A DNA stretch of 64,000 nucleotides, taken from positions 128,001-192,000 of the forward strand of contig JAHPZH010000009.1 in assembly GCA_019058315.1 (NCBI GenBank). The letters run 5' to 3'. The position numbers were made by a program, and so were the translations under genes. Within the stretch, counting starts at the first letter, position 1. Every line of letters starts with the position of its first letter. Below the pieces are notes generated by a model that was given only the letters and a program-made list of their open reading frames with translations, was not told the origin of the DNA and did not search any database. Shown here piece by piece: positions 2,009-23,790 of the stretch. This DNA is from Candidatus Helarchaeota archaeon (GTDB lineage Archaea; Asgardarchaeota; Lokiarchaeia; Helarchaeales; RDOG01).

Positions 2009-2116
2009 TGGCGGACCCGGGGGGAATTTCGCCCAACTGCATATATCAATTGGGATTCGAACCCTCGATGTCCAACTTAGAAGGCTGGTGGTCTATCCTG
2101 GCTAACCTACGGGTCC
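2009..2116 (-). tRNA. tRNA-Arg(UCU) with 30-nt intron in the T-loop (59/60); CCA encoded
   Basis: Acceptor GGACCCG/CGGGTCC, anticodon arm CCAGC-CT TCT AA-GTTGG; T-arm GAGGG TTCGAA^T CCCCC after intron removal. Confidence 0.95.
2026..2055 (-). other. BHB intron of tRNA-Arg
   Basis: Outer helix GGG/CCC, central TTCG/CGAA, bulges AAT and ATT, inner stem CCCAATTG/CAGTTGGG. Confidence 0.93.
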
Positions 2117-8355: not shown

Positions 8356-8402
8356 TTGACATCTAATGTATTGGACTTTAAGAAAAAATAGTATATATTC
8401 AA

Positions 8403-8798
8403 CTACATTGGACCAAGATTTCCAAGATCTGATGTAGTTCCTGGTCTTTGTAAAGCACTTTGAATTTTAGTCCTAGCTTCTTCGAATTGTTTCCTTGTAC
8501 GCTCTTCTTGTCTTTGTATTGTCTTAAGTCTCATCTCTAACGTATCTTTTTTATCAATTAGTTCTTCTTTCACTTTATCTTTTTGGGATTTTACTAAAAT
8601 TGAACCAACGTTTTTATATACAACTGAATCTTCATCTAATTTTTCTAATTCTGATAAGGCTTTTTCCGCCTCTTTCATTCTAATTTCCATTTGACTTTTC
8701 TGAGCAACCAGCATTTCTAATCGTTGTTGGAGTTGCTGAAGTTGCATAATTTGATGTTGTAATTGTGGTGGTATTTCTTGCATCTCTATTTTCTCCAT
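8403..8798 (-). CDS. pfdB: Prefoldin beta subunit
   Basis: IPPQLQ..., VYKNVGSILVK hairpin, flanking coiled coils. Confidence 0.93.
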   Translation of the reverse strand: MEKIEMQEIPPQLQHQIMQLQQLQQRLEMLVAQKSQMEIRMKEAEKALSELEKLDEDSVVYKNVGSILVKSQKDKVKEELIDKKDTLEMRLKTIQRQEERTRKQFEEARTKIQSALQRPGTTSDLGNLGPM

Positions 8799-9606: not shown

Positions 9607-10419
9607 TTAGGGTAGGTATTGAAATAATTCTTTCGATTTTTCTAATGTAATCTCAACACATTTTATAATTTCGTCTTTAGTAAAAATACCTTCTCTACCT
9701 TTTTGTATGCTACAAATATTTCCAGATTCATCTACTGTAATTGTAATGCGTGCATCCATTATGCGATCCTCTTGTTCATTTGGATCAACCAGCAATTTAT
9801 CTCCTATCTTTGCTATTGTAACTGAAACTGCTTTATTGGAAAATGGGAGGGATAACCAATCTGCTTTTTTGTATTGTTCACCTAAAACTTCCACTTTATT
9901 ATCAACAATCTCAGTCCTTGGCATTTTTGCAGAAAGTAAAGCTGCCACTCCTGCTAATGTTCCCGCATCAAACATATTTCCATCATAAGATAAAACATAT
10001 AAATCAATAAAAATGATAAAAACTTGTTCGCCAGGAATTAAGCATAATTTAGAATAATCTACTATTTCTGAATGACGAATTCCTCTGTCAACTACACGTG
10101 CAACCTCAACAGAATCTTCATTTGGTGGTCCTGGTTCGAATATAGGGGATGCAAGAGCTGTAAGCTCGGCATTAACAGTGATTACTCCCCTATCAGGAGT
10201 ATCTGGAAATGGAGGTCCAAGTGAAATCTTTACACCTGCAATAATATCTGTATTTCCAATTTTAACACGTGCTGACCCCTCAGCTTTTAGTATTACATCT
10301 GTCTCTACAGATATTTTTCGATAATCTAAAAAATTCCTTCCGTCTATTCTCTGATCCTTTTTTACTAGAGAATTTATATGAGATTTTTCAATTTCAGAAA
10401 TAATTTTAAAAGATTCCAT
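9607..10419 (-). CDS. rrp42: Exosome complex component Rrp42
   Basis: RIDGR..LDYR, AEGSARV, PFPDTPDRG, FEPGPP, ARVVDRGIR. Confidence 0.96.
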   Translation of the reverse strand: MESFKIISEIEKSHINSLVKKDQRIDGRNFLDYRKISVETDVILKAEGSARVKIGNTDIIAGVKISLGPPFPDTPDRGVITVNAELTALASPIFEPGPPNEDSVEVARVVDRGIRHSEIVDYSKLCLIPGEQVFIIFIDLYVLSYDGNMFDAGTLAGVAALLSAKMPRTEIVDNKVEVLGEQYKKADWLSLPFSNKAVSVTIAKIGDKLLVDPNEQEDRIMDARITITVDESGNICSIQKGREGIFTKDEIIKCVEITLEKSKELFQYLP

Positions 10420-11233
10420 TATATATCCTCCTCCTTTGATATTTCAGTTTCAATTTCTTTATCAAGTTGACTATATTTTCCCTTTATCGTCTGAATTTGA
10501 ATTTCATTTAATTTTTCAATTCCTTTTTCAGCAATATCCAAGGCTTTACGCATTTCATCAAATGTTATTTGACCATCAAATTGCAAAAGTGTATATGATT
10601 TAGATCGTGGCATCATTGCAATTGGTAAATCTCCCAAACCTTCTTTATCTTCAACATCCGATAAATCTAGAACTAATGTGGGTGGATCAGGATTTGCAAT
10701 TTTACCTACTGCTACACCACAAACAAGGTCGCGTAATGATATTCCAGCATCCGCTAGAGCTAAAGAAGCCGCAGTAACCGCAGCACAACGTGTACCACCA
10801 TCTGCACAAAGGACTTGGATAAAAACATCTATTATAGTTTTTGGATAATATTCAAGAAATATTGATGATTCCAAAGCTTGTCGTAAAATTAGCGAAAGTT
10901 CGACTTCCCTTCTAGATGGGGCAGGAGATTTTCTCTCATCTACTTTATTCCAAATTATTCACTCGGTATAATTTAAGCGAACGTAGCCATGCGATAAAGT
11001 ACTCGCAAAACTGCCGCATCTTGACGGGCTAAATGACGAGGGTGAACTTCACGTGGTCCATAAACTGCGACCAAAATTTTATTCTTTCCCATATTTATTA
11101 AAGCAGAACCATCTGCTTTTGTTAATAATCCCATCTCCATTGAGACTGGTCTTAATTCATCATATTTCCTATTATCTGTTCTTATTCCATCCCTAATTAA
11201 CCAATCAGCTGGGACTTGTTTAAAAAGTGCCAT
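10419..11233 (-). CDS. rrp41: Exosome catalytic subunit Rrp41, two exons: complement(join(10419..10944,10977..11233)), 260 aa
   Basis: Exon 1 ends ...AVYGPREVHPRH...YRMATFA; exon 2 continues VDERKSPAPSRREVELS...ADGGTRCA. Joined length 783 nt, in frame. Confidence 0.93.
10945..10976 (-). other. 32-nt BHB intron in rrp41 mRNA
   Basis: CTAC-GTTC-GC^T-TAAATTAT...ATAATTTG-GAAT-AA^A-GTAG: 4-bp outer helix, 4-bp central helix, two 3-nt bulges, 8-bp inner stem. Confidence 0.9.
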
Positions 11234-11288
11234 AATTATCACCTTTTTATATATTTTTTTAATTCATATCTAAATTTCGATTTTCAAT

Positions 11289-11993
11289 TTACTTCTTCTT
11301 TTTTTCATTCTCTATCAAAATTTTTACTCTATCTGTGAGGCCAGAAGTATGTGCCTCTCGTTCAATTTTCTTAATAATTTTAATCAATAATTGTTCATCT
11401 TCTAAGTTTTTTGTAGATATCCAAACCAAACCATTTTGTCCAACTACGATTTGGCTTTTTGTTGCTTCTTTAATTAAATTTATCATAGAACCCTTTCTTC
11501 CTATCAATCTAGGTATTTTCGCAGAAGCAATTTTTATTACTTTTCCTCCGCGCAATTTACCATATCCTTTACCTCTTATTGATAGAACAGGATCTCTTGT
11601 TCTGTTAAATGCTATTATCTCCCCCACAATAATTTGTCCGATATCAAAATAATTTTTGATATTATCTTTTAAAGGATTAAATGCTCGGTCTATTACATTT
11701 GTAACATGTAAGGAAGCTGTATATGGAGAATCAATATCAACTTTCCAGCTAACGATGGATGTATTTATAATTTTTCCTATAACAACATCACCGACCTTAG
11801 GTACATAAGGTCCACTGAAGGGAACTACATATACATTATTATTTCCTCTAATCTCTGAAAACCCAATAATAGATGCATAAAGTTTATCCTCTTCCTTGTA
11901 TGTTCCAAATCCTGCTCTATACTTAGAACCTTCTACAATTAATTCGCCTGGCACTACAATACGATGCCGTTCAAAACTATCTCCATTTGACAA
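11289..11993 (-). CDS. rrp4: Exosome cap protein Rrp4 (S1+KH)
   Basis: IVVPGE, YVPKVGDVVIG, KIPRLIGRKGSMI, GQNGLVWI, AHTSGLTDR. Confidence 0.96.
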   Translation of the reverse strand: MSNGDSFERHRIVVPGELIVEGSKYRAGFGTYKEEDKLYASIIGFSEIRGNNNVYVVPFSGPYVPKVGDVVIGKIINTSIVSWKVDIDSPYTASLHVTNVIDRAFNPLKDNIKNYFDIGQIIVGEIIAFNRTRDPVLSIRGKGYGKLRGGKVIKIASAKIPRLIGRKGSMINLIKEATKSQIVVGQNGLVWISTKNLEDEQLLIKIIKKIEREAHTSGLTDRVKILIENEKKKK

Positions 11994-12021
11994 AAAAAGT
12001 CCTCCTTTATTTTTAAAACTG

Positions 12022-12756
12022 TTAAAAGAGTGTTTCCTTTAATTTCTTAATATCATGTTTACCTTTTGTTAAATTTTTAAGTTGGTCATTTAATTCAGCA
12101 TGGACACCAACAGGAAGGTCAATTAATGCTATCCATGATCCATCAGATTGCCATTCATCTTTAGAAATTGTACCATACTTTGAAACAATGCCATAAGCTT
12201 TTCCTGTATATTGAGCTGGAATTTTTACAGCAAGAGTAATTCGTTCCATTTTAATAGGGATAATTTCTGCTAATTTCTTCACAATTTTCTTTGCTTGCTC
12301 AACAATTTCCTCATTGGAATCTATAGATATTTTTGCATCTTCCATTGCACGTTCAATGCGAGCTGGTGGATGTGGAAGCCCAGTTTTGGGATTTACACAA
12401 TTACGATTGATAAAATAAATAATTTTTTTTCTAATTTTCTCCGTAAATTCTTTTCTCATTTCAGCTGTAATGTGCAGTTCTCCATTTTTTAAAATCTCTT
12501 CTGAAATTTCAAAAATGTCATCAGTTTCAAATATTTTCTGAAATAACTCCGAATCTGTCAATTTTTCACCGCGTAAAGCGTCTGAAAAAATGTAATATCC
12601 AATTAAAATATCACGTATTTCAATATCCTTTCCTTCTTTGAATTGCCAAGCTAGCTTCGGATCTACTAAGATCTCAAAATGATGTCCCATACTATCATAA
12701 CGAACTATGGTTGCTTTTCCAAGATCTAGTCTTTTCTGTCCCCTTATAGAAACCAT
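12022..12756 (-). CDS. sdo1: Ribosome maturation factor SBDS/Sdo1
   Basis: FEILVDP, NPKTGLPHPPARIERAM, EWQSDGS. Confidence 0.95.
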   Translation of the reverse strand: MVSIRGQKRLDLGKATIVRYDSMGHHFEILVDPKLAWQFKEGKDIEIRDILIGYYIFSDALRGEKLTDSELFQKIFETDDIFEISEEILKNGELHITAEMRKEFTEKIRKKIIYFINRNCVNPKTGLPHPPARIERAMEDAKISIDSNEEIVEQAKKIVKKLAEIIPIKMERITLAVKIPAQYTGKAYGIVSKYGTISKDEWQSDGSWIALIDLPVGVHAELNDQLKNLTKGKHDIKKLKETLF

Positions 12757-12773
12757 ATTTATCTGATCTACTT

Positions 12774-13487
12774 CTAAATCCTTTGTATATATTTATCCAA
12801 TTCCTCGGTAGCTAATCTTTCGAATTCCTTAGTTTCAGTACGTGCTATTGCCACTTCTACCTTAGTTGAATCAAGTTCAGTTTCGATTACTTGTTTTAAT
12901 GCTTTAAGAGCTAACTCAATTGCTTGATCTAATGTCATTTCAGGCTTATATTCTTTTTCGAGTTCTTCTTGTACTGTCTGAGCACCAGAGCCAATAGCAT
13001 TGGCACGATAGCCCCAAAATGCCCCTGATGGATCAGTTAAAAATAATTGAGGCCCTTTTTCATCAATTCCAGCAATTAATAGACTTACACCGAAAGGGCG
13101 AACTCCTGCATGTTGCGTATATAATTGTTTTAGATCACATATCTTTTTTGTTAGCATTTGAATATCAATTGACTCATCATAAGTGAGTTTATTTATTTGA
13201 CATTGAATTCTAGCATGATCTACTAGAACTCTTGCATCAGCTGTCAAACCAGCTATAGCACAGCCAACATGATTATCAATTTTAAAAATCTTTTCTACAC
13301 TTTCAGGTTCCTGAAGTGCAAGAATTCTTTTTTCTACTGTACAAACAACACCTTCAGAACATAAAATGCCAATTGCAGTAGTACCCTTTCTAACTGCTTC
13401 CATGGCATATTCTACTTGAAAGAGTCTTCCATCTGGACTAAAGATCGTGATTGCACGGTCATAGCCCATACCTGGTGGCGCGAACAT
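12774..13487 (-). CDS. psmA: Proteasome alpha subunit
   Basis: GYDRAITIFSPDGRLFQVEYA, GVRPFGVSLL, TDPSG; start at MFAPP. Confidence 0.98.
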   Translation of the reverse strand: MFAPPGMGYDRAITIFSPDGRLFQVEYAMEAVRKGTTAIGILCSEGVVCTVEKRILALQEPESVEKIFKIDNHVGCAIAGLTADARVLVDHARIQCQINKLTYDESIDIQMLTKKICDLKQLYTQHAGVRPFGVSLLIAGIDEKGPQLFLTDPSGAFWGYRANAIGSGAQTVQEELEKEYKPEMTLDQAIELALKALKQVIETELDSTKVEVAIARTETKEFERLATEELDKYIQRI

Positions 13488-13852
13488 AATGCATAAACAC
13501 CTACCTTTTCTTAAATTAACCAATTCTTTATTTCAAAGTTAAATATATTTTCATAAGAAATTATAGTTTATTTTTTTTACTCTTTTGTATAAATTTATTT
13601 CTTTTATTTACACAAGATTTTCTTATACAAAAATGTTTTTTTCCTTTATTTATATTCATAATTGTTATTTTAAAAAAAAATAAATTTTTTTTCCTTAAAT
13701 TTTTTGGTGAATTTATTAAAAAAGAATTAAAATTTCTTTAATTAAATATAACCGAACTAAATTTCAACATAGAACCGTTTAAAAAACACATATACTTAAA
13801 ATTCTAACGATTTTTTAAATAAATTTTGATTTAAAACCTTCTATCATAGATT

Positions 13853-14362
13853 TTAACTTTGTACAGCGTATAAATATAGAATAGTTATTATACAACCCAA
13901 AATTGTAAAAACACTCATAACAGCAGAACCTGAAGCAAATGCATAAATCAAGGTTAATAAACCAGTTCCAATAATAAAGATAATCATTGATAATAAACCA
14001 GCTGTATGCCTTCTGTATTCTAACAAATTAGCAAATCCTATGAATATGAATGCGAAAAATAGTGATAACAGAAAAGCAGTAAAAATATCAGCTAATGTAA
14101 TAATTCCCAATTTCACTGACCATAAACTTCTGATAAAAATAAGAATACCGTCACTACCAAAAAAATACTCACCAAAGGGATTTTTAAACGGATTCTGAAA
14201 TTCCAAAGTCATTGGGATATAAATAATGAAATAAATAAGAAGAATAACTAAGGATATAAAAAGACATAGATAAAACGAAAAAAGCATTTTTTGTCGGATT
14301 TCGGCTCTTCTTAATCTTTCTTTTTTAGTTATAACTCTTTTTGACATTAAAAAAAAATCCAA
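13853..14362 (-). CDS. Hypothetical membrane protein (about 4 TM)
   Basis: Basic N-terminus followed by hydrophobic segments. Confidence 0.65.
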   Translation of the reverse strand: MDFFLMSKRVITKKERLRRAEIRQKMLFSFYLCLFISLVILLIYFIIYIPMTLEFQNPFKNPFGEYFFGSDGILIFIRSLWSVKLGIITLADIFTAFLLSLFFAFIFIGFANLLEYRRHTAGLLSMIIFIIGTGLLTLIYAFASGSAVMSVFTILGCIITILYLYAVQS

Positions 14363-14430
14363 TAATACTTTTTTTTAAATAGGAAGTAAATAAATAATAA
14401 AAATTTGGTAAAGATATTTATTTTTAATCG

Positions 14431-14877
14431 GTGAAAATGTCTTCTGAAATCCACGTAATTACAATTAGAGATTCTGATTTAGACAAATTAGTAGAATTTA
14501 CAAAAAAAACTTACCCATACGAGTCATGTGCATTATTTATAGGGAATATAAATGGTCATAAAGCAACAGTAGACGAAATTTTATTTGCTGAAAATATTGA
14601 TTACTCTCATGTTAGCTTTTCAATTAACCCTGAATTTCTATATCAAGTTTATATGAAAGCAGAAAAAGAAAATAAGGTGATTACAGGTATATTTCATTCC
14701 CATCCGACTGTCTCTGCTCCTTCGTCAGTTGATTTGAAATATATGGAATATAATCCAGTAGCATGGATTATTTTAGGTGTTTTGGATGAAACTAATATAA
14801 AAAAGGAAGATATGCGAGCTTATCAATACTGGGAAAATTCAATAAAAGAAGTAAAAATAGAAATTATGAACATTTGA
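14431..14877 (+). CDS. JAB/MPN+ (JAMM) metalloisopeptidase
   Basis: YPYESCA...FHSHP...PSSVD (E-HxH-S-D motif). Confidence 0.9.
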   Translation: MKMSSEIHVITIRDSDLDKLVEFTKKTYPYESCALFIGNINGHKATVDEILFAENIDYSHVSFSINPEFLYQVYMKAEKENKVITGIFHSHPTVSAPSSVDLKYMEYNPVAWIILGVLDETNIKKEDMRAYQYWENSIKEVKIEIMNI

Positions 14878-15002
14878 ATTAGGTATATAATTTATTGAAA
14901 TATTAGTGCTTAATTTACATTTTTGCTTTAAAACAAAAATATATTAACAATAAATCAACATTAAAGAATAGTATTTTAAAAAGTATAAGAAAGTGAAATT
15001 GA

Positions 15003-15710
15003 ATGGGTAACACTGAACTCTTAGTAGTATTATATATGTTATTGACTCGACCAAGGGGTTTTCCATTATTCGATTACTTTGCTGATAATGCAGCTGGGAT
15101 GTTAGCATTAGGAGGTCTCTTTGCTGGATTTTGGTTTATTGATTGGATAATTAGGCACCCCGAAGCTGAGGAAGAAAGACCTGCATATTTAGTAGCTATT
15201 GATATCATCGGGTTTTTTATTGGAATCATCTGTTTAGGCAGTGGGATCACTTTATTGTTGAATGGACAAGATCCAATAACTGAAGCTATCGGTGGATTTA
15301 TAGGGGGTAAACATGATATTTTTACGAAGGGTCTGATTATAGCAGTCGGTTTATGTTTATTCTTAAAACCAATTAAAGATATTCCTTGGGCAAGTTTGAT
15401 TGCAATGATCGCTGGCGCTGTAGTTGTTTTTCTTGCAATAACTTATCTTGAAACTACCTTTACACAGCTTGCTGGACTTTTAGGTATTGATGTAAAACTT
15501 CTTTATGGTATCATTTTCGTATTAGTATATGGTATTATATTCAGTATGTTCGGTTTAGCTCAATATATTCTACGTATAGTAGCTACAATATTAAGTTCAA
15601 GACCAGGTTCATTTGTTTTATTTGTATTATGCATGATTCAAGCATTATTGATTATCTTGCCACCCCATCCAGACGCTTATAGTCTTGCTCCACTCTTTGG
15701 ATTAACCTAA
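15003..15710 (+). CDS. Hypothetical multi-pass membrane protein
   Basis: About 6-7 hydrophobic segments. Confidence 0.7.
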   Translation: MGNTELLVVLYMLLTRPRGFPLFDYFADNAAGMLALGGLFAGFWFIDWIIRHPEAEEERPAYLVAIDIIGFFIGIICLGSGITLLLNGQDPITEAIGGFIGGKHDIFTKGLIIAVGLCLFLKPIKDIPWASLIAMIAGAVVVFLAITYLETTFTQLAGLLGIDVKLLYGIIFVLVYGIIFSMFGLAQYILRIVATILSSRPGSFVLFVLCMIQALLIILPPHPDAYSLAPLFGLT

Positions 15711-16352
15711 TCTACCTTTTAATTTTATTTTTGTTAAATACTGATAAGTCAGTGTTTGGCTAGGTGATTTTAAAAAAAGAAAAAGATCTTTAGGTAAATC
15801 AATATCTAATCCAAAATTTTTAGAATTATGTATTATTAAATTGTGATTTTTTACATTACGAGCTTTCTCAATATGTTTTTGAAAACTATTTTCACCATAT
15901 TCAATTTTAATTATGTCAGAAGGCATTAGAAATAAAAGATTAGTACCATTCTTTCTTAAAGATGGAGATATTATAATTGTAGGTGGGTTGATTTCATAAT
16001 TAAATATCTCATCAATATCGTTTGAGGTTATAAGTGGAATATCTCCAGGAATTATTAAAACTGAATTTGCATTTTTTTTGATTGCAAATTCTATAGCAGA
16101 ATTTATTGATTCATTTATATTTGTTTCCATTTGCTCGCTTATTATATCTCCAAATTGAGAACCAATATCTAATATCATTGGATCAGAAGAGATTGTAACA
16201 ATTTTATTGGTTTTTTGAGTTGCACTTGCTGCCTGTATTACATCTTTAAACATATTGATACATAGTTTTTTTCTCTGTTCAGAGTTTAAAATGGAATTTA
16301 GTCTTAACTTTGCGAATTCTAGAGATTTAACCGGGATAATTATAAAATTCAT
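15702..16352 (-). CDS. cofC: 2-phospho-L-lactate/PEP guanylyltransferase
   Basis: IIPVK....AKLRL, PGDIPL, GTN, YGENSF..H, DIDLPKDL. Confidence 0.93.
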   Translation of the reverse strand: MNFIIIPVKSLEFAKLRLNSILNSEQRKKLCINMFKDVIQAASATQKTNKIVTISSDPMILDIGSQFGDIISEQMETNINESINSAIEFAIKKNANSVLIIPGDIPLITSNDIDEIFNYEINPPTIIISPSLRKNGTNLLFLMPSDIIKIEYGENSFQKHIEKARNVKNHNLIIHNSKNFGLDIDLPKDLFLFLKSPSQTLTYQYLTKIKLKGRLG

Positions 16353-17303
16353 TCATCCCACATTTAATTTCATCGCATCTAATGTAATTTGTGCTAAGTT
16401 TTTCTTAATTTCTAAATTCTTCATTAAAGTATTAGTAATTATTACTTTAATTCCTAATTTTTCAATTTCACTTTTTCTATCTTTATCAATTTCATCAATA
16501 ACAAATGTCTTAATCAAGTTTTTATAGAATTTTGCTACGCCAAAACAAGAAACTTCCATTCCTAAACCCTTCATGAGCCTATCAAGAGGTCCTTTTACTG
16601 GTTTATTTCCTATTATTGGACTTATTCCAATAATTGGTTTATCAATTTGTTCTAAAGCCAATTTAATTTCCTTAATGGATAAAATAGTATTTATACTCAC
16701 AAGTGGATTACTAGGACCTATTAATATCCCTTCAGCATTCTTAATTATATCCAATATCCCATTTGTAGGTTTAGCATCTTCAGCTCCCTCATAAATAATT
16801 TCTAAAACTTTATCTTGTGCTTTTCTCTCAATCATATATTCTTCAAAATGAATAATACCATCTGGAGTTCTAATTTTGGTCATGACCTTTTGATTAGTCA
16901 TTGGAATTAAATTTACTTCAACTCCAAGATGTTGACATAATTTTTTAGTAATTTCAGAAAGTTTTAACCCCGATTTTAATAAATTAGTTCTATAAATATG
17001 CGTTGCTAAATCTTTATCTCCCAGTTTAAACCATGTATCTTGTTTATACCTACTTAGCATTTCTAGGCAATTTGTAGTATCATTATCTATTCCCCAACCT
17101 TGCATTTTATCTACAATTCCAGAAAGAGTATACATAATTATATCTAAATCTGGTGAGATTGAAAGACCATATAGCTCAAAGTCATCAGCTGTATTTACTA
17201 TAACGTATAAATCTTTTGGGTTCACTATTTGAACCAATCCTTGGAGAAATCTTGCCGCACCTACTCCACCGGCTAAAACTACAATCAAACAGATTGCCCC
17301 CAT
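16353..17303 (-). CDS. cofD: 2-phospho-L-lactate transferase
   Basis: LAGGVGAARF, NTADD, SPDLD, WFKLGDKDLATH, GPSNP. Confidence 0.96.
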   Translation of the reverse strand: MGAICLIVVLAGGVGAARFLQGLVQIVNPKDLYVIVNTADDFELYGLSISPDLDIIMYTLSGIVDKMQGWGIDNDTTNCLEMLSRYKQDTWFKLGDKDLATHIYRTNLLKSGLKLSEITKKLCQHLGVEVNLIPMTNQKVMTKIRTPDGIIHFEEYMIERKAQDKVLEIIYEGAEDAKPTNGILDIIKNAEGILIGPSNPLVSINTILSIKEIKLALEQIDKPIIGISPIIGNKPVKGPLDRLMKGLGMEVSCFGVAKFYKNLIKTFVIDEIDKDRKSEIEKLGIKVIITNTLMKNLEIKKNLAQITLDAMKLNVG

Positions 17304-17902
17304 TTATTTTTAAAAGTAATTTTTTTAATTTCTATCCTTGAAGGCGGTGAAGGGGTTTCATCTGGATAACCAACTGTTATAAAAGCTTGAGGATCATGGT
17401 CTTTAGGTATACCCAATACTTTACGAACTATATCCTGACAAAATAATGGAGCACAATACCAACAGCACCCAAAACCATTTGTATAACTGACTAAGAGAAA
17501 ATTTTGTATTGCTGCACTTACACTTTGGATTGCCATAATATATTCTGCATTTTGTCTTTTTTTATCAGGATATTTATGCATTCTTTCCATTGATAGACAT
17601 GGGATTAAGATAATTGGTGCTGCTGTAAATTTTCTGATTGATTCTTCAATAATATCTTTTCTAGATGGCTCTGCAATTTGATCTTTTTCTAGATCGTTCT
17701 CATATTCTTCTGCCATTTTTTTAACTAATTCAGATTTTACTTGAGGATCTTCGATAATTAAAAAATAATATGGCATTGCATTATGTGCTGAAGGTGCCCA
17801 AATAGAAAATTCTAGAATTTCTACTATTTTAGAAATATCAATTGGGTTTTTTTTATATTTTCTAATACTTCTTCTTAATTTTATTACATCTTTTATATCC
17901 AA
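17285..17902 (-). CDS. Nitroreductase-family protein (FbiB C-terminal-like)
   Basis: RRSIRKY, WAPSAHNAMP, SVSAAIQN, CWYCAPLF; heads the cofD-cofC operon; start inferred at TTG 17902. Confidence 0.85.
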   Translation of the reverse strand: MDIKDVIKLRRSIRKYKKNPIDISKIVEILEFSIWAPSAHNAMPYYFLIIEDPQVKSELVKKMAEEYENDLEKDQIAEPSRKDIIEESIRKFTAAPIILIPCLSMERMHKYPDKKRQNAEYIMAIQSVSAAIQNFLLVSYTNGFGCCWYCAPLFCQDIVRKVLGIPKDHDPQAFITVGYPDETPSPPSRIEIKKITFKNKWGQSV

Positions 17903-18080
17903 TATTAAAAACCCCAATAGTAAAAGGTCATTAAACTTGAATAAAAAAAAATTTTTAAAAATATTTAACGTCAAAAATCCAAATTTTCAATAATCTGATT
18001 TAAAAAATGAGTAAAAAAGCATATTTTATTATTTAATTCCCCTATTTTATTAAATTTAAATCAATTTAGATCAAAATTAG

Positions 18081-18149
18081 GGATCAAATCGTCGCAGAGC
18101 TCATCATCAGTGTTGGATTTTTTCAGCTTGGGGCGACGATATCATTTCC
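18081..18149 (-). ncRNA. Candidate box C/D sRNA / K-turn RNA
   Basis: GGA-A-ATGATAT (C-like), 12 nt, CTGA (D'), spacer, ATGATGA (C'), 13 nt, TTGA (D-like), TCC; GC-rich island in an AT-rich spacer. Confidence 0.55.
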
Positions 18150-18306
18150 GAGTTATATTTTATTATCTTTAAATTTAAAAATTACGTAATTACGCGCTAT
18201 AAATAAAAAAACTCTGAAATGCAAAAAAAGAATTTTGCAAAAAACATTTAAAATCATATTAATTGGGAAATATAAATTAAAAATGAAAAGTCCAGAGGTA
18301 AGTTTT

Positions 18307-19400
18307 ATGGTAAAGACTGGAATAATATATCATGAAGATTATTTAAAACATGATACTGGAGATCATGTTGAAAATAAAAAAAGATTGATTGCCACTTTGG
18401 ATTTATTTAATGAATACAAAATTTTTGAGCATCCTAATATCATTAAGATTTCCCCAAATCCAGCATCTATTAAGGAAATTCAAAGAGTTCATAAAGCATT
18501 TTATATAGAAAAAGTCCGGGAAAAATGTTTAAGTGGTGGGGGCTGGCTTGATGCTGATACAATTGTCTCTCCAGATAGCTACAATGTTGCATTATTAGCT
18601 GCTGGAGGAGCAATACAAGCAGGTGAGATGGCTGTAAAAGGTAAAATTGACAATGCTTTTTGTTTAATACGTCCTCCAGGACATCATGCCGGACCAGGGG
18701 TTGCTAGAGGATTTTGTGTATTTAATAATATTGCCATTGTTGCAAAATCTTTAATTGCGAGGTTTGAAGAGGTCAATAAAGTCTTAATATTTGACCACGA
18801 TGCACATTAAAAAAGAAATTTTCTTTTTTAAGCATATACGCAGGTAATGGAACCTCGCAAATTCTATATAACGATCCAAATGTGCTATTATTTGATTTTC
18901 ACCAACATCCGCGAACACTCTATCCTGGAACAGGTTATATAGATGAAATAGGTGAGGAAGAAGGAAAGGGATATAATATAAATTTACCTATGGTTCCCCG
19001 TGCTGGTGATGCTCAATATCTAGAAGTTATTGATGAATTATTCATTCCAATTATTAATCAATTTAAACCTGATATTGTTCTAGTTTCAGCAGGATTTGAT
19101 ACTCATTTTTCTGATCCCATTACACAACTCAATATAACAATTCAAGGATATGGAGAAATCGTTAAAAAAATAAAAAAAGAGGCAAAAAAAGTCTGTGCTG
19201 GGAAAATTATAATTATGCTTGAGGGTGGATATGATTTAAAAGCACTATCTCAGGGAATTCTAACTGAAATATCTGTACTTGGAGATTTAGGTATTGAATT
19301 TATAGAAAATCCTCCTAAAATTGAAGAAGCTATAGTAGATTACAATAGAAAAATGATAGATAAATTAAAAGAAGTTTTAGGTGCTTATTGGAAATTTTAA
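18307..19400 (+). CDS. HDAC/AcuC-family Zn-dependent deacetylase, two exons: join(18307..18805,18838..19400), 353 aa
   Basis: HVENKKRL, RPPGHHA, GFCVFNN, spliced DHDAHAGNGT, YPGTG, SAGFD, LEGGY. Joined length 1062 nt; GAGGT before ATG 18307. Confidence 0.92.
18806..18837 (+). other. 32-nt BHB intron in deacetylase mRNA
   Basis: CG-ATGC-AC^A-TTAAAAAAGAA...TTCTTTTTTAA-GCAT-AT^A-CG: perfect 4-bp central helix, two 3-nt bulges, 11-bp inner stem. Confidence 0.9.
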
Positions 19401-23237: not shown

Positions 23238-23273
23238 AAAAATTCTTTATATAGAATAGCTCCGGTAGTGTAG

Positions 23274-23303
23274 ACGCAAATTAACGAAAATCTTGCGACA
23301 AAA
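23274..23303 (+). other. tRNA-Glu intron 1 (D-loop, 15/16; relaxed BHB)
   Basis: GTGT-AG^A-CGCAA...TTGCG-ACAA-AA^T. Confidence 0.82.
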
Positions 23304-23328
23304 TCCGGTCAAGCATAAAGGGCTCTCG

Positions 23329-23356
23329 TTTATACGTAATTTTACTATAAAAAGAA
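23329..23356 (+). other. tRNA-Glu intron 2 (canonical 37/38)
   Basis: GGG-CTCT-CG^T-TTATA...TATAA-AAAG-AA^A-CCC. Confidence 0.9.
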
Positions 23357-23364
23357 ACCCTTCG

Positions 23365-23389
23365 GCTGCTAATTTATTAGCAGGAGGAA
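23365..23389 (+). other. tRNA-Glu intron 3 (variable loop, 45/46; relaxed BHB)
   Basis: CCTT-CG^G-CTGCTAA...TTAGCAG-GAGG-AA^A. Confidence 0.87.
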
Positions 23390-23790
23390 ACCCGGGTCCG
23401 AATCCCGGCCGGAGCACCAATTTTTAATTTCTAATGATTTTATTTCTTGATTTATGATCAAATCTAATTTGGTATTATTGAAAAACTATATTTAGTTAAG
23501 GCGCGTATTGGAAAATAGAGTTAAAAAATTTTATGATTATACTAAAATGAAATTTAGCTTTAATTTGATAATATTTATAAATTATTTTTAGTTCTACTAC
23601 AAAAGAAAAATAGAAAATGTTATTAGAGGAAATACGATTTTTAATGAATATTATTTCTAATAATTCAATTTACTCAAATATAAAGAGATGATGCTCAAAT
23701 TAAATTAATTTGTGCTAATATTTTTTGATAATGTCTTATCTGAATTATTGAGAGTTAAAAATTTTTTCCCATATAAGAGGATATGCTAAA

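What the first reader, a model, noticed from the sequence alone, without database searches (positions are those of the whole stretch)
10945..18837. tRNA-type (BHB) introns in multiple protein-coding genes: candidate mRNA-splicing system in an Asgard-like archaeon
Seen: two unrelated genes 8 kb apart (rrp41, HDAC-family deacetylase) each carry an insertion of exactly 32 nt. Each folds as outer helix / 4-bp helix / two 3-nt bulges / AT-rich inner hairpin, the same architecture and size class as the four 25-30 nt tRNA introns here. Cutting after the second nucleotide of each bulge (the EndA rule) restores frame and conserved motif in both, with no adjustable parameter. Both have an in-frame TAA immediately after the 5' site, so unspliced mRNA gives truncated protein. 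Established: EndA cuts BHB motifs and RtcB ligates; the well-validated archaeal mRNA intron is in crenarchaeal cbf5. Inference: two cases in 64 kb suggest many more genome-wide, hidden as split genes or pseudogenes. Expression of RNA-decay and deacetylation enzymes would then depend on EndA/RtcB, loosely analogous to non-spliceosomal HAC1/XBP1 splicing.
Basis: partly seen in the sequence, partly recalled or inferred. Interest (0 to 1): 0.96.

Follow-up and report, generated by a model that had tools for sequence, protein, structure and literature searches.

The report
tRNA-type introns inside Asgard protein genes
Two housekeeping genes of a Helarchaeota-like Asgard archaeon (exosome subunit Rrp41 and an HDAC-family deacetylase) are each interrupted by a 32-base insert shaped exactly like the introns that the tRNA-splicing enzyme removes, so their mRNAs most likely have to be spliced, something shown so far for only one archaeal protein gene (cbf5).

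Summary
rrp41 (- strand) and an HDAC-family gene (+ strand) each carry a 32-nt insert, at 10945-10976 and 18806-18837. Each insert with its flanks forms a canonical bulge-helix-bulge (BHB) motif. Cutting after the second base of each bulge gives proteins that align without a gap to orthologues (FA|VDERKSPAPSRREVELS; DHDAH|AGNGTS). Each pair of gene halves matches adjoining parts of one Pfam domain.

All 40 related genomes and 80 metagenomic rrp41 homologues lack the inserts. Independent DNA assemblies from another study contain them, so they are not assembly artefacts. One such contig has a 2-nt deletion inside the HDAC insert. In shuffles of the insert, a BHB this good almost never arises (7 and 0 of 200,000).

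The genome encodes two EndA paralogues, a crenarchaeal-type catalytic alpha and a beta-like subunit without the catalytic His, plus RtcB. Two tRNAs in the window carry 28-30-nt introns of the same build.

I confirmed four more such mRNA inserts elsewhere in the genome (EF-2 paralogue, HTH-CBS, RNase Z, LeuC-like) and a probable fifth (PAC2). Other readers of this scan had flagged these too. The likely total is about ten to a few tens, not hundreds.

No RNA data were available, so splicing is inferred. This is the known mechanism (cbf5-type) in a new host, in new genes and at a new scale.

The parts
10977..11242 (-). rrp41 exon 1 (ends ...YRMATF + GC of the Ala codon); start codon not determined
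   Evidence: ORF. Pfam RNase_PH positions 1-59 of 130.
10945..10976 (-). rrp41 BHB intron, 32 nt, phase 2, with in-frame TAA at 10975-73
   Evidence: Sequence; BHB decomposition and shuffle test. Absent from 29 aligned relatives and 80 metagenomic homologues. Present in contigs from an independent study.
10940..10986 (-). Full hBHBh' motif of rrp41: outer helix 10986-83/10943-40, central helix 10982-79/10950-47, 5' bulge 10978-76, 3' bulge 10946-44, inner helix 10975-68/10958-51
10419..10944 (-). rrp41 exon 2 (A of the Ala codon, then VDERKSPAPSRREVELS... to the stop)
   Evidence: Pfam RNase_PH 64-129 plus RNase_PH_C. Gapless match to orthologues across the junction.
18235..18805 (+). HDAC-family gene exon 1 (ends ...FDHDA + C of the His codon); start codon not determined
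   Evidence: ORF. Pfam Hist_deacetyl 1-151 of 298.
18806..18837 (+). HDAC BHB intron, 32 nt, phase 1, with in-frame TAA at 18808-10
   Evidence: Orthologues are uninterrupted. Independent contigs span it, one with a 2-nt deletion at 18822.
18794..18845 (+). BHB motif of the HDAC gene: central helix 18800-03/18832-35, bulges 18804-06 and 18836-38, inner helix 18807-17/18821-31, outer pairs 18798-99/18839-40 and 18794-96/18843-45
   Evidence: the MFE fold contains it.
18838..19400 (+). HDAC-family gene exon 2 (AC of the His codon, then AGNGTSQ... to the stop)
   Evidence: Pfam Hist_deacetyl 154-295. Junction DHDAHAGNGTS is identical to the nearest orthologues.
2009..2116 (-). tRNA-Arg(TCT) with a 30-nt BHB intron at 2055-2026 (T-loop, 59/60). 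Same build as the mRNA introns: central helix UUCG/CGAA, 8-bp inner helix.
   Evidence: ARAGORN finds it only after BHB excision. Sequence; decomposition.
23259..23419 (+). tRNA-Glu(CTC), 161 nt, interrupted several times. The 28-nt intron at 37/38 (23329-23356) is delimited; two further inserts are not.
   Evidence: GC-island scan, sequence, relaxed BHB search.

Best explanation
The two 32-nt inserts are archaeal bulge-helix-bulge (tRNA-type) introns inside protein-coding genes.

Proposed mechanism:
- In the pre-mRNA, four exon bases just upstream of the 5' splice site pair with four bases near the 3' end of the intron.
- An AT-rich intron hairpin on one side and an exon-exon helix on the other frame two 3-nt bulges on opposite strands.
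- The splicing endonuclease EndA, here apparently a crenarchaeal-type alpha-beta heterotetramer, cuts after the second base of each bulge.
- RtcB joins the exons and probably circularises the intron.
- Only the spliced mRNA encodes full-length Rrp41 or deacetylase. Unspliced mRNA stops at a TAA one codon into the intron.

Shown here: the motif, exact frame and motif restoration, absence of the inserts from orthologues, their presence in independent DNA, the enzymes in the genome, and parallel cases in tRNAs and in other mRNAs of the same genome.

Inferred: cleavage, ligation, and any regulatory use.

The inserts look like recent, lineage-specific gains.
For: 1. Canonical hBHBh' geometry at both sites. 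For the HDAC gene it is also the thermodynamic optimum.

2. The cut sites fixed by the motif alone give junction peptides identical to the nearest orthologues: FAVDERKSPAPSRREVELS as in L002, and DHDAHAGNGTS as in L032/L033. The halves are adjoining parts of one Pfam domain.

3. Shuffled inserts almost never give such a motif: 7 and 0 of 200,000. The genome-wide rate of loose BHB hits is about 3x10^5 over roughly 10^9 position-length pairs.

4. Orthologues of both genes in all 40 relatives have open frames of 247-275 aa (rrp41) and, with one exception (296 aa), 356-400 aa (HDAC). The 80 metagenomic rrp41 homologues are also uninterrupted at the junction.

5. DNA contigs from a different study span both inserts. 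The differences are one SNP in the rrp41 intron loop (10964) and a 2-nt deletion inside the HDAC intron hairpin (18822). The other listed indels nearest these two genes (11253, 19414) lie just outside their coding regions.

6. Enzymes: an EndA alpha most like the A. pernix catalytic subunit (3P1Z_B, E 4e-45); a second EndA paralogue lacking the catalytic His; one RtcB.

7. The same build and size occur in tRNA-Arg and tRNA-Glu introns in the window. They also occur in the EF-2 paralogue (31 nt; GTP_EFTU 2-79 | 82-169), HTH-CBS (33 nt), RNase Z (29 nt; TIGR02651 1-37 | 37-300), a LeuC-like gene (27 nt; GGD|SHT) and PAC2 (26 nt).

8. There is no second rrp41 copy: the only other hit is a 30%-identical RNase PH paralogue. 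The other HDAC gene is a 40%-identical paralogue that the relatives also carry.
Against: - No RNA evidence: no RNA run holding this sequence was listed, so neither junction reads nor circular introns could be sought.
- For rrp41 the BHB fold is 4.6 kcal/mol above the predicted MFE.
- The HDAC outer helix has only two contiguous pairs.
- No relative carries either intron, so no covariation test is possible. Conservation therefore does not show that the structure is under selection.
- The 30-nt HDAC variant rests on one contig at depth about 7.
Confidence: 0.85

Rival explanations
1. EndA cleaves at the BHB, but this mainly serves regulation or decay. The intron acts as a switch, so that Rrp41 and deacetylase levels depend on EndA/RtcB activity, and splicing is inefficient or conditional rather than constitutive.
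For: The motif and enzymes are as in the main reading. Early in-frame stops make the unspliced mRNA non-productive. Several hosts are RNA-processing or translation genes: rrp41, rnz, the EF-2 paralogue.
Against: - Nothing in the sequence distinguishes regulated from constitutive splicing.
- The introns are young and absent from relatives, which fits neutral gain better than an evolved switch.
- In-frame stops are expected by composition alone.
Confidence: 0.07
2. The genes are pseudogenes, inactivated by short insertions that happen to be hairpins. No splicing occurs.
For: The inserts are absent from all relatives. No RNA evidence exists.
Against: - rrp41 is single-copy and sits in the conserved rrp4-rrp41-rrp42 operon.
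- Both genes are otherwise intact, and the junctions are identical to orthologues.
- The inserts meet a 9-plus base-pair geometric rule with cut sites that restore the frame, p < 10^-4 each.
- The same thing recurs in at least four other genes, including the only strong RNase Z match.
- In a 2-3% divergent population, the listed indels at these two genes fall in the intron or just outside the coding regions.
Confidence: 0.04
3. The ribosome skips the insert (translational bypassing of the T4 gene 60 type), or shifts frame. The RNA is not spliced.
For: There is a stop codon right after the 5' boundary, followed by a hairpin. This is superficially like a take-off site.
Against: - There are no matching take-off and landing codons. 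For rrp41 the pair is GCU before UAA versus AAA before GUA. For HDAC it is CAU versus UAC (read).
- In rrp41 the two frames do not overlap (stops at 10975-73 and 10961-59), so a simple shift cannot join them.
- In the HDAC gene a -1 shift would put 11 extra residues inside the D-x-H metal-binding motif, which orthologues do not have.
- Bypassing does not explain the 4-bp exon-intron helix or the opposed 3-nt bulges.
Confidence: 0.02
4. The inserts are an assembly or sequencing artefact, or copies of a small mobile element.
For: None beyond the short size.
Against: - Contigs from another study and other samples span both inserts.
- Each intron sequence is unique in the 5.8-Mb genome, with only low-complexity partial hits.
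- There are no target-site duplications.
Confidence: 0.01

Closest known systems
cbf5 pre-mRNA BHB intron of Crenarchaeota (Watanabe 2002; Yoshinari 2006; Yokobori 2009, PMC2738675)
   Same: It is a BHB intron inside a protein-coding gene that interrupts the reading frame. The host has a two-subunit (alpha-beta) EndA. It shows lineage-specific gain and loss. PMC2738675 states that archaeal pre-mRNA splicing had been confirmed for no gene other than cbf5.
   Different: - Different phylum (Helarchaeota-like Asgard) and different genes.
- At least six genes in one genome, plus a probable seventh, rather than one.
- All introns are 26-33 nt and all sit in motif-coding positions.
- Splicing is not yet shown by RNA data here.
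Non-canonical tRNA introns of Asgard archaea (PMC11291895; bioRxiv 10.64898/2026.10.13.758758) and Thermoproteales
   Same: The hBHBh' build and size class are the same, as seen in tRNA-Arg and tRNA-Glu in this window. Standard tRNA finders miss them. EndA alpha-beta pairs are widespread in Asgard genomes.
   Different: Those studies concern tRNA genes only. Text searches of these two papers turned up no discussion of introns in protein-coding genes: 'mRNA' does not occur in the preprint, and every 'intron' passage shown for PMC11291895 concerns tRNA. My library searches found no Asgard mRNA case.
HAC1/XBP1 unconventional mRNA splicing
   Same: Both are protein-only, non-spliceosomal excision of a short intron from an mRNA, followed by ligation. 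In metazoans the ligase is RtcB.
   Different: The nuclease there is IRE1, which recognises twin stem-loops rather than a BHB, and the event is a stress-regulated frame switch. No regulation is shown here. This is an analogy only.

Membership tests
Archaeal BHB (hBHBh') intron | [quoted passage not shown] | tested here: met
   rrp41: GUUC/GAAU with bulges GC|U and AA|A. HDAC: AUGC/GCAU with bulges AC|A and AU|A.
Archaeal BHB (hBHBh') intron | Flanking helices on both sides (exon-exon outer helix, intron inner helix) | tested here: met
   Inner helices are 8 and 11 bp. The outer helix is 4 bp in rrp41. In HDAC it is 2 bp plus 3 bp after a 1x2 loop, which is weaker.
Archaeal BHB (hBHBh') intron | Cutting at the canonical bonds yields the functional mature RNA | tested here: met
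   The frame is restored. The junction peptides are identical to the nearest orthologues, and each pair of halves matches adjoining parts of one Pfam domain.
Archaeal BHB (hBHBh') intron | The host encodes the splicing endonuclease and an RtcB-type ligase | tested here: met
   Two EndA paralogues and one RtcB are present. The alpha subunit aligns without a gap to the A. pernix catalytic subunit through the loop region. That this loop confers broad specificity is from the literature (PMC5829648) and my own knowledge.
Archaeal BHB (hBHBh') intron | Cleavage and ligation observed (junction reads, circular intron, in vitro cutting) | not testable with these tools
   No RNA run was listed for this sequence.
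Archaeal BHB (hBHBh') intron | Structure maintained by compensatory changes across lineages | tested here: inconclusive
   No other lineage carries these introns. Population variants are a loop SNP and a 2-nt hairpin deletion only.
Translational bypass element (T4 gene 60 type) | Matching take-off and landing codons flanking the gap | tested here: not met
   The codons are GCU versus AAA (rrp41) and CAU versus UAC (HDAC), read.
Group I / group II self-splicing intron | Catalytic RNA core of hundreds of nt | tested here: not met
   The inserts are 32 nt. Rfam found nothing in the window at E <= 1.
Miniature mobile element (MITE-like) | Multiple near-identical copies and target-site duplication | tested here: not met
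   Each intron is unique in the genome.

The most novel reading that the evidence does not exclude
This Helarchaeota-like lineage has undergone a recent burst of BHB-intron gain into protein-coding genes. There are at least six verified or motif-supported cases, none found at the same sites in the related genomes for the four genes I tested (rrp41, HDAC, EF-2 paralogue, RNase Z). All are 26-33 nt and all sit in codons of highly conserved motifs. This would imply an active, still unknown insertion route, for example reverse EndA/RtcB splicing into mRNA followed by reverse transcription and recombination. It would make expression of core RNA-decay, tRNA-processing and translation genes depend on the tRNA-splicing machinery in a close relative of the eukaryotic ancestor.
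Probability: 0.3. Interest if true: 0.9.

Novelty: new variant of a known kind. Interest (0 to 1): 0.74.

Why it matters
Protein-coding genes in archaea are normally uninterrupted. Enzymatic (EndA-type) mRNA splicing has been demonstrated only for cbf5 in some Crenarchaeota.

An Asgard archaeon in which several essential mRNAs need the tRNA-splicing machinery would matter for several reasons:
- It shows that this machinery can serve as a general mRNA-splicing system in the lineage closest to eukaryotes. The mRNAs concerned include the exosome subunit, RNase Z, an EF-2 paralogue and a deacetylase.
- It offers a natural case of recent intron gain in coding sequence that can be studied.
- It is a practical warning for annotation. 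Such genes are called as split genes or pseudogenes, and the interrupted tRNAs are missed by standard tools.

Tried and rejected
- RNA evidence: no RNA holder was listed for the 9.1-kb stretch or for the rrp41-rrp4 stretch (10419-11993), so expression and splicing could not be examined.
- ARAGORN, with and without intron mode, and Rfam at gathering and E <= 1 thresholds, found no tRNA in the window. The tRNAs appeared only after BHB excision or a GC-island scan.
- RNAfold alone does not return the rrp41 BHB. My first hand-drawn geometry, with both bulges at the same end of the helix, was wrong and was corrected.
- The genome-wide loose BHB scan with an ORF-joining filter is swamped by adjacent co-directional genes: 1733 hits against 1517-1626 for frame-shifted decoys. 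A 'no start codon' filter helped little.
- Candidates rejected after Pfam or reading: argininosuccinate synthase/next gene, McrG/next gene, REC/Hpt, prefoldin beta/next gene in this window (8384-8415), GluRS (alternative-frame artefact), and several others.
- The 'TAA inside' rrp41 matches in two relatives were just natural stops.
- The apparent break of EF-2 in the nearest relative was upstream of its start. That gene is continuous.
- Another report's statement that related lineages keep the RNase Z insert was not reproduced. RNase Z open frames in the relatives with full-length matches are 295-310 aa, which suggests the insert is absent there. I did not align across the junction.
- A triple-intron search for tRNA-Glu with strict BHBs found nothing. 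Only its 37/38 intron was delimited.
- PMC3064391 could not be read.

Full report
**What is in the sequence.**
The window is contig 10, 128001-192000, of a 5.79-Mb, 12-contig, ~30% GC genome. On the minus strand, rrp41 is called as two ORFs in different frames, 10973..11242 and 10419..10874. On the plus strand, an HDAC-family gene is called as 18235..18810 and 18882..19400. The rrp41 upstream frame ends ...YRMATFA-TAA. The downstream frame opens only after a TGA at 10961-59, so no single frameshift can join the two. The HDAC upstream frame ends ...FDHDAH-TAA.

**The fold.**
In a BHB the two 3-nt bulges lie on opposite strands of a 4-bp helix. That helix is built from the last exon bases before the 5' site and from intron bases near the 3' site.
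- **rrp41 RNA:** CUAC GUUC GC|U [8-bp hairpin, 9-nt loop] GAAU AA|A GUAG.
- **HDAC RNA:** CG AUGC AC|A [11-bp hairpin] GCAU AU|A CG.

Cutting after the second bulge base removes exactly 10976..10945 and 18806..18837, 32 nt each. For HDAC the MFE fold contains this structure. For the EF-2 case the BHB is the MFE. For rrp41 the BHB is 4.6 kcal/mol above the MFE. This is usual for bulged motifs that are read by a protein.

**Is it more than chance?**
I shuffled each 32-nt insert 200,000 times, allowing five boundary offsets. A strict BHB arose in 396 trials (rrp41) and 123 trials (HDAC). With an inner helix as long as observed, the counts fell to 7 and 0.

**Do the predicted junctions make sense?**
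The spliced proteins read ...YRMATFA|VDERKSPAPSRREVELS... and ...LIFDHDAH|AGNGTSQ.... All 29 aligned rrp41 orthologues run through this point without a gap, and the nearest (66% identical) has FAVDERKSPAPSRREVELS. The nearest HDAC orthologues read DHDAHAGNGTS, again without a gap. Exon pairs match RNase_PH 1-59 | 64-129 and Hist_deacetyl 1-151 | 154-295. A -1 frameshift in the HDAC gene would instead place 11 residues inside the metal-binding D-x-H motif.

**Distribution.**
Neither insert occurs in any of 40 related genomes (same family, order or class). The rrp41 insert also occurs in none of 80 metagenomic rrp41 homologues. The nearest named relative is a Candidatus Helarchaeota MAG, so the Asgard label is right. 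The inserts are therefore young, and no covariation test is possible.

**Not an artefact.**
Contigs assembled from runs of a different study, 2-3% divergent, span both inserts. They differ by a SNP in the rrp41 intron loop (10964) and, in one contig, by a 2-nt deletion inside the HDAC hairpin (18822). That deletion would make the intron 30 nt. The other listed indels nearest these two genes (11253, 19414) lie just outside their coding regions. This pattern fits a non-translated insert between constrained exons. Each intron sequence is unique in the genome.

**Machinery.**
The genome has two EndA paralogues.
- One (184 aa) is most like the catalytic alpha subunit of the A. pernix heterotetramer (E 4e-45). 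It aligns without a gap through the loop region.
- The other (201 aa) has no His at the catalytic position and looks like a structural beta subunit.

One RtcB is present. The alpha-beta type is the one linked in the literature to relaxed substrates and to cbf5 mRNA splicing (PMC5829648; Yoshinari 2006, cited).

**Same build in tRNAs.**
Standard tools see no tRNA in the window. After BHB excision, a tRNA-Arg(TCT) appears with a 30-nt intron in the T-loop. A 161-nt tRNA-Glu(CTC) carries a 28-nt 37/38 intron and two further inserts.

**Elsewhere in the genome.**
I scanned both strands for strict BHBs whose excision joins two open frames. Ranked by helix quality, the top of the list was EF-2 paralogue, HDAC, HTH-CBS and rrp41.
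- **EF-2 paralogue:** the halves match GTP_EFTU 2-79 | 82-169, splitting DTPGH|VD.
- **RNase Z:** split FDCGE|GTQ by a 29-nt strict BHB. TIGR02651 matches 1-37 | 37-300.
- **LeuC-like gene:** carries a 27-nt in-frame insert with three stops between GGD and SHT, with a slightly relaxed BHB.
- **PAC2 gene:** probably split by 26 nt.
- **Relatives:** the EF-2 paralogue aligns uninterrupted in the five relatives I aligned. Open-frame lengths indicate the same for it in the other relatives and for RNase Z.

Lower-ranked candidates were mostly adjacent genes. Real hits exceed frame-shifted decoys by about 30 for introns of 12-35 nt. I therefore estimate ten to a few tens of such introns, not the ~180 implied by two per 64 kb. 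Other first-stage notes of this scan had flagged the same genes. I used them as leads and re-tested those cited.

**Comparison with what is known.**
BHB introns in archaeal pre-mRNA are established for cbf5 in Desulfurococcales and Sulfolobales. PMC2738675 notes that no other gene had been confirmed. Recent Asgard work describes heavily interrupted tRNA genes. The passages I retrieved from those papers do not discuss introns in protein-coding genes. My literature searches found no Asgard mRNA case. The mechanism here is therefore known. What is new is the host lineage, the target genes, the number per genome and the apparent recency.

**Verdict.**
Splicing itself is untested because no RNA data were available. 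My confidence that these are EndA/RtcB-spliced mRNA introns is 0.85.

Noticed in passing
window 10945-10976, 18806-18837; genome C6:81229-81259, C6:64108-64136, C6:232831-232857, C5:499169-499201, C1:81769-81794: All mRNA introns found sit inside codons of very conserved motifs: FA|VDERK, DAH|AGNG, DTPGH|VD, FDCGE|GTQ, GGD|SHT, the HTH recognition helix, and GLGATG|Y. All are 26-33 nt with AT-rich, nearly perfect hairpins. This is partly ascertainment bias, but the structure-ranked scan found them without using motifs. The cause is unexplained: insertion preference, or exon sequences suited to forming half of a BHB.
   Followed up: partly
genome C5:~382140-382680 (+): This is a complete methyl/alkyl-coenzyme M reductase gamma subunit (Pfam MCR_gamma 72-246 of 246, E 2e-60). 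It is consistent with a Helarchaeota-type alkane-oxidising Asgard archaeon.
   Followed up: no
genome C3:627500-631800 (- strand): This is a dense array of about 19 tRNA genes, many with introns, by ARAGORN. Some calls are doubtful (for example Ser-AGA with a 138-nt 'intron'). Only 42 tRNAs are found genome-wide, so many interrupted tRNAs are probably missed.
   Followed up: no
window 14865-14930 versus 18807-18831: In the related populations (runs X2, X3), the intergenic stretch after the JAB/MPN-like gene contains a 25-nt segment matching the HDAC intron hairpin (UUAAAAAAGAAAUUUUCUUUUUUAA). It may be only a low-complexity terminator-like hairpin. It may also hint that such hairpins are the raw material of new introns.
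   Followed up: no
window 10925-11010: A contig of a more distant relative (~81% identity, run X6) aligns up to 10925 and resumes at 11010, with unknown sequence between. It could show the state of the rrp41 intron site in a closer relative than any genome searched.
   Followed up: no
genome C11:56626-57484: ARAGORN calls a tRNA-Lys(TTT) with a 763-nt intron. It was not examined, and could be a long BHB intron with an ORF or a false call.
   Followed up: no
window 15702-17974 (-): A CofC-like, CofD-like (2-phospho-L-lactate transferase) and nitroreductase-family gene cluster lies between the two interrupted genes, which suggests F420 biosynthesis. This is judged from the ORF translations only.
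   Followed up: no
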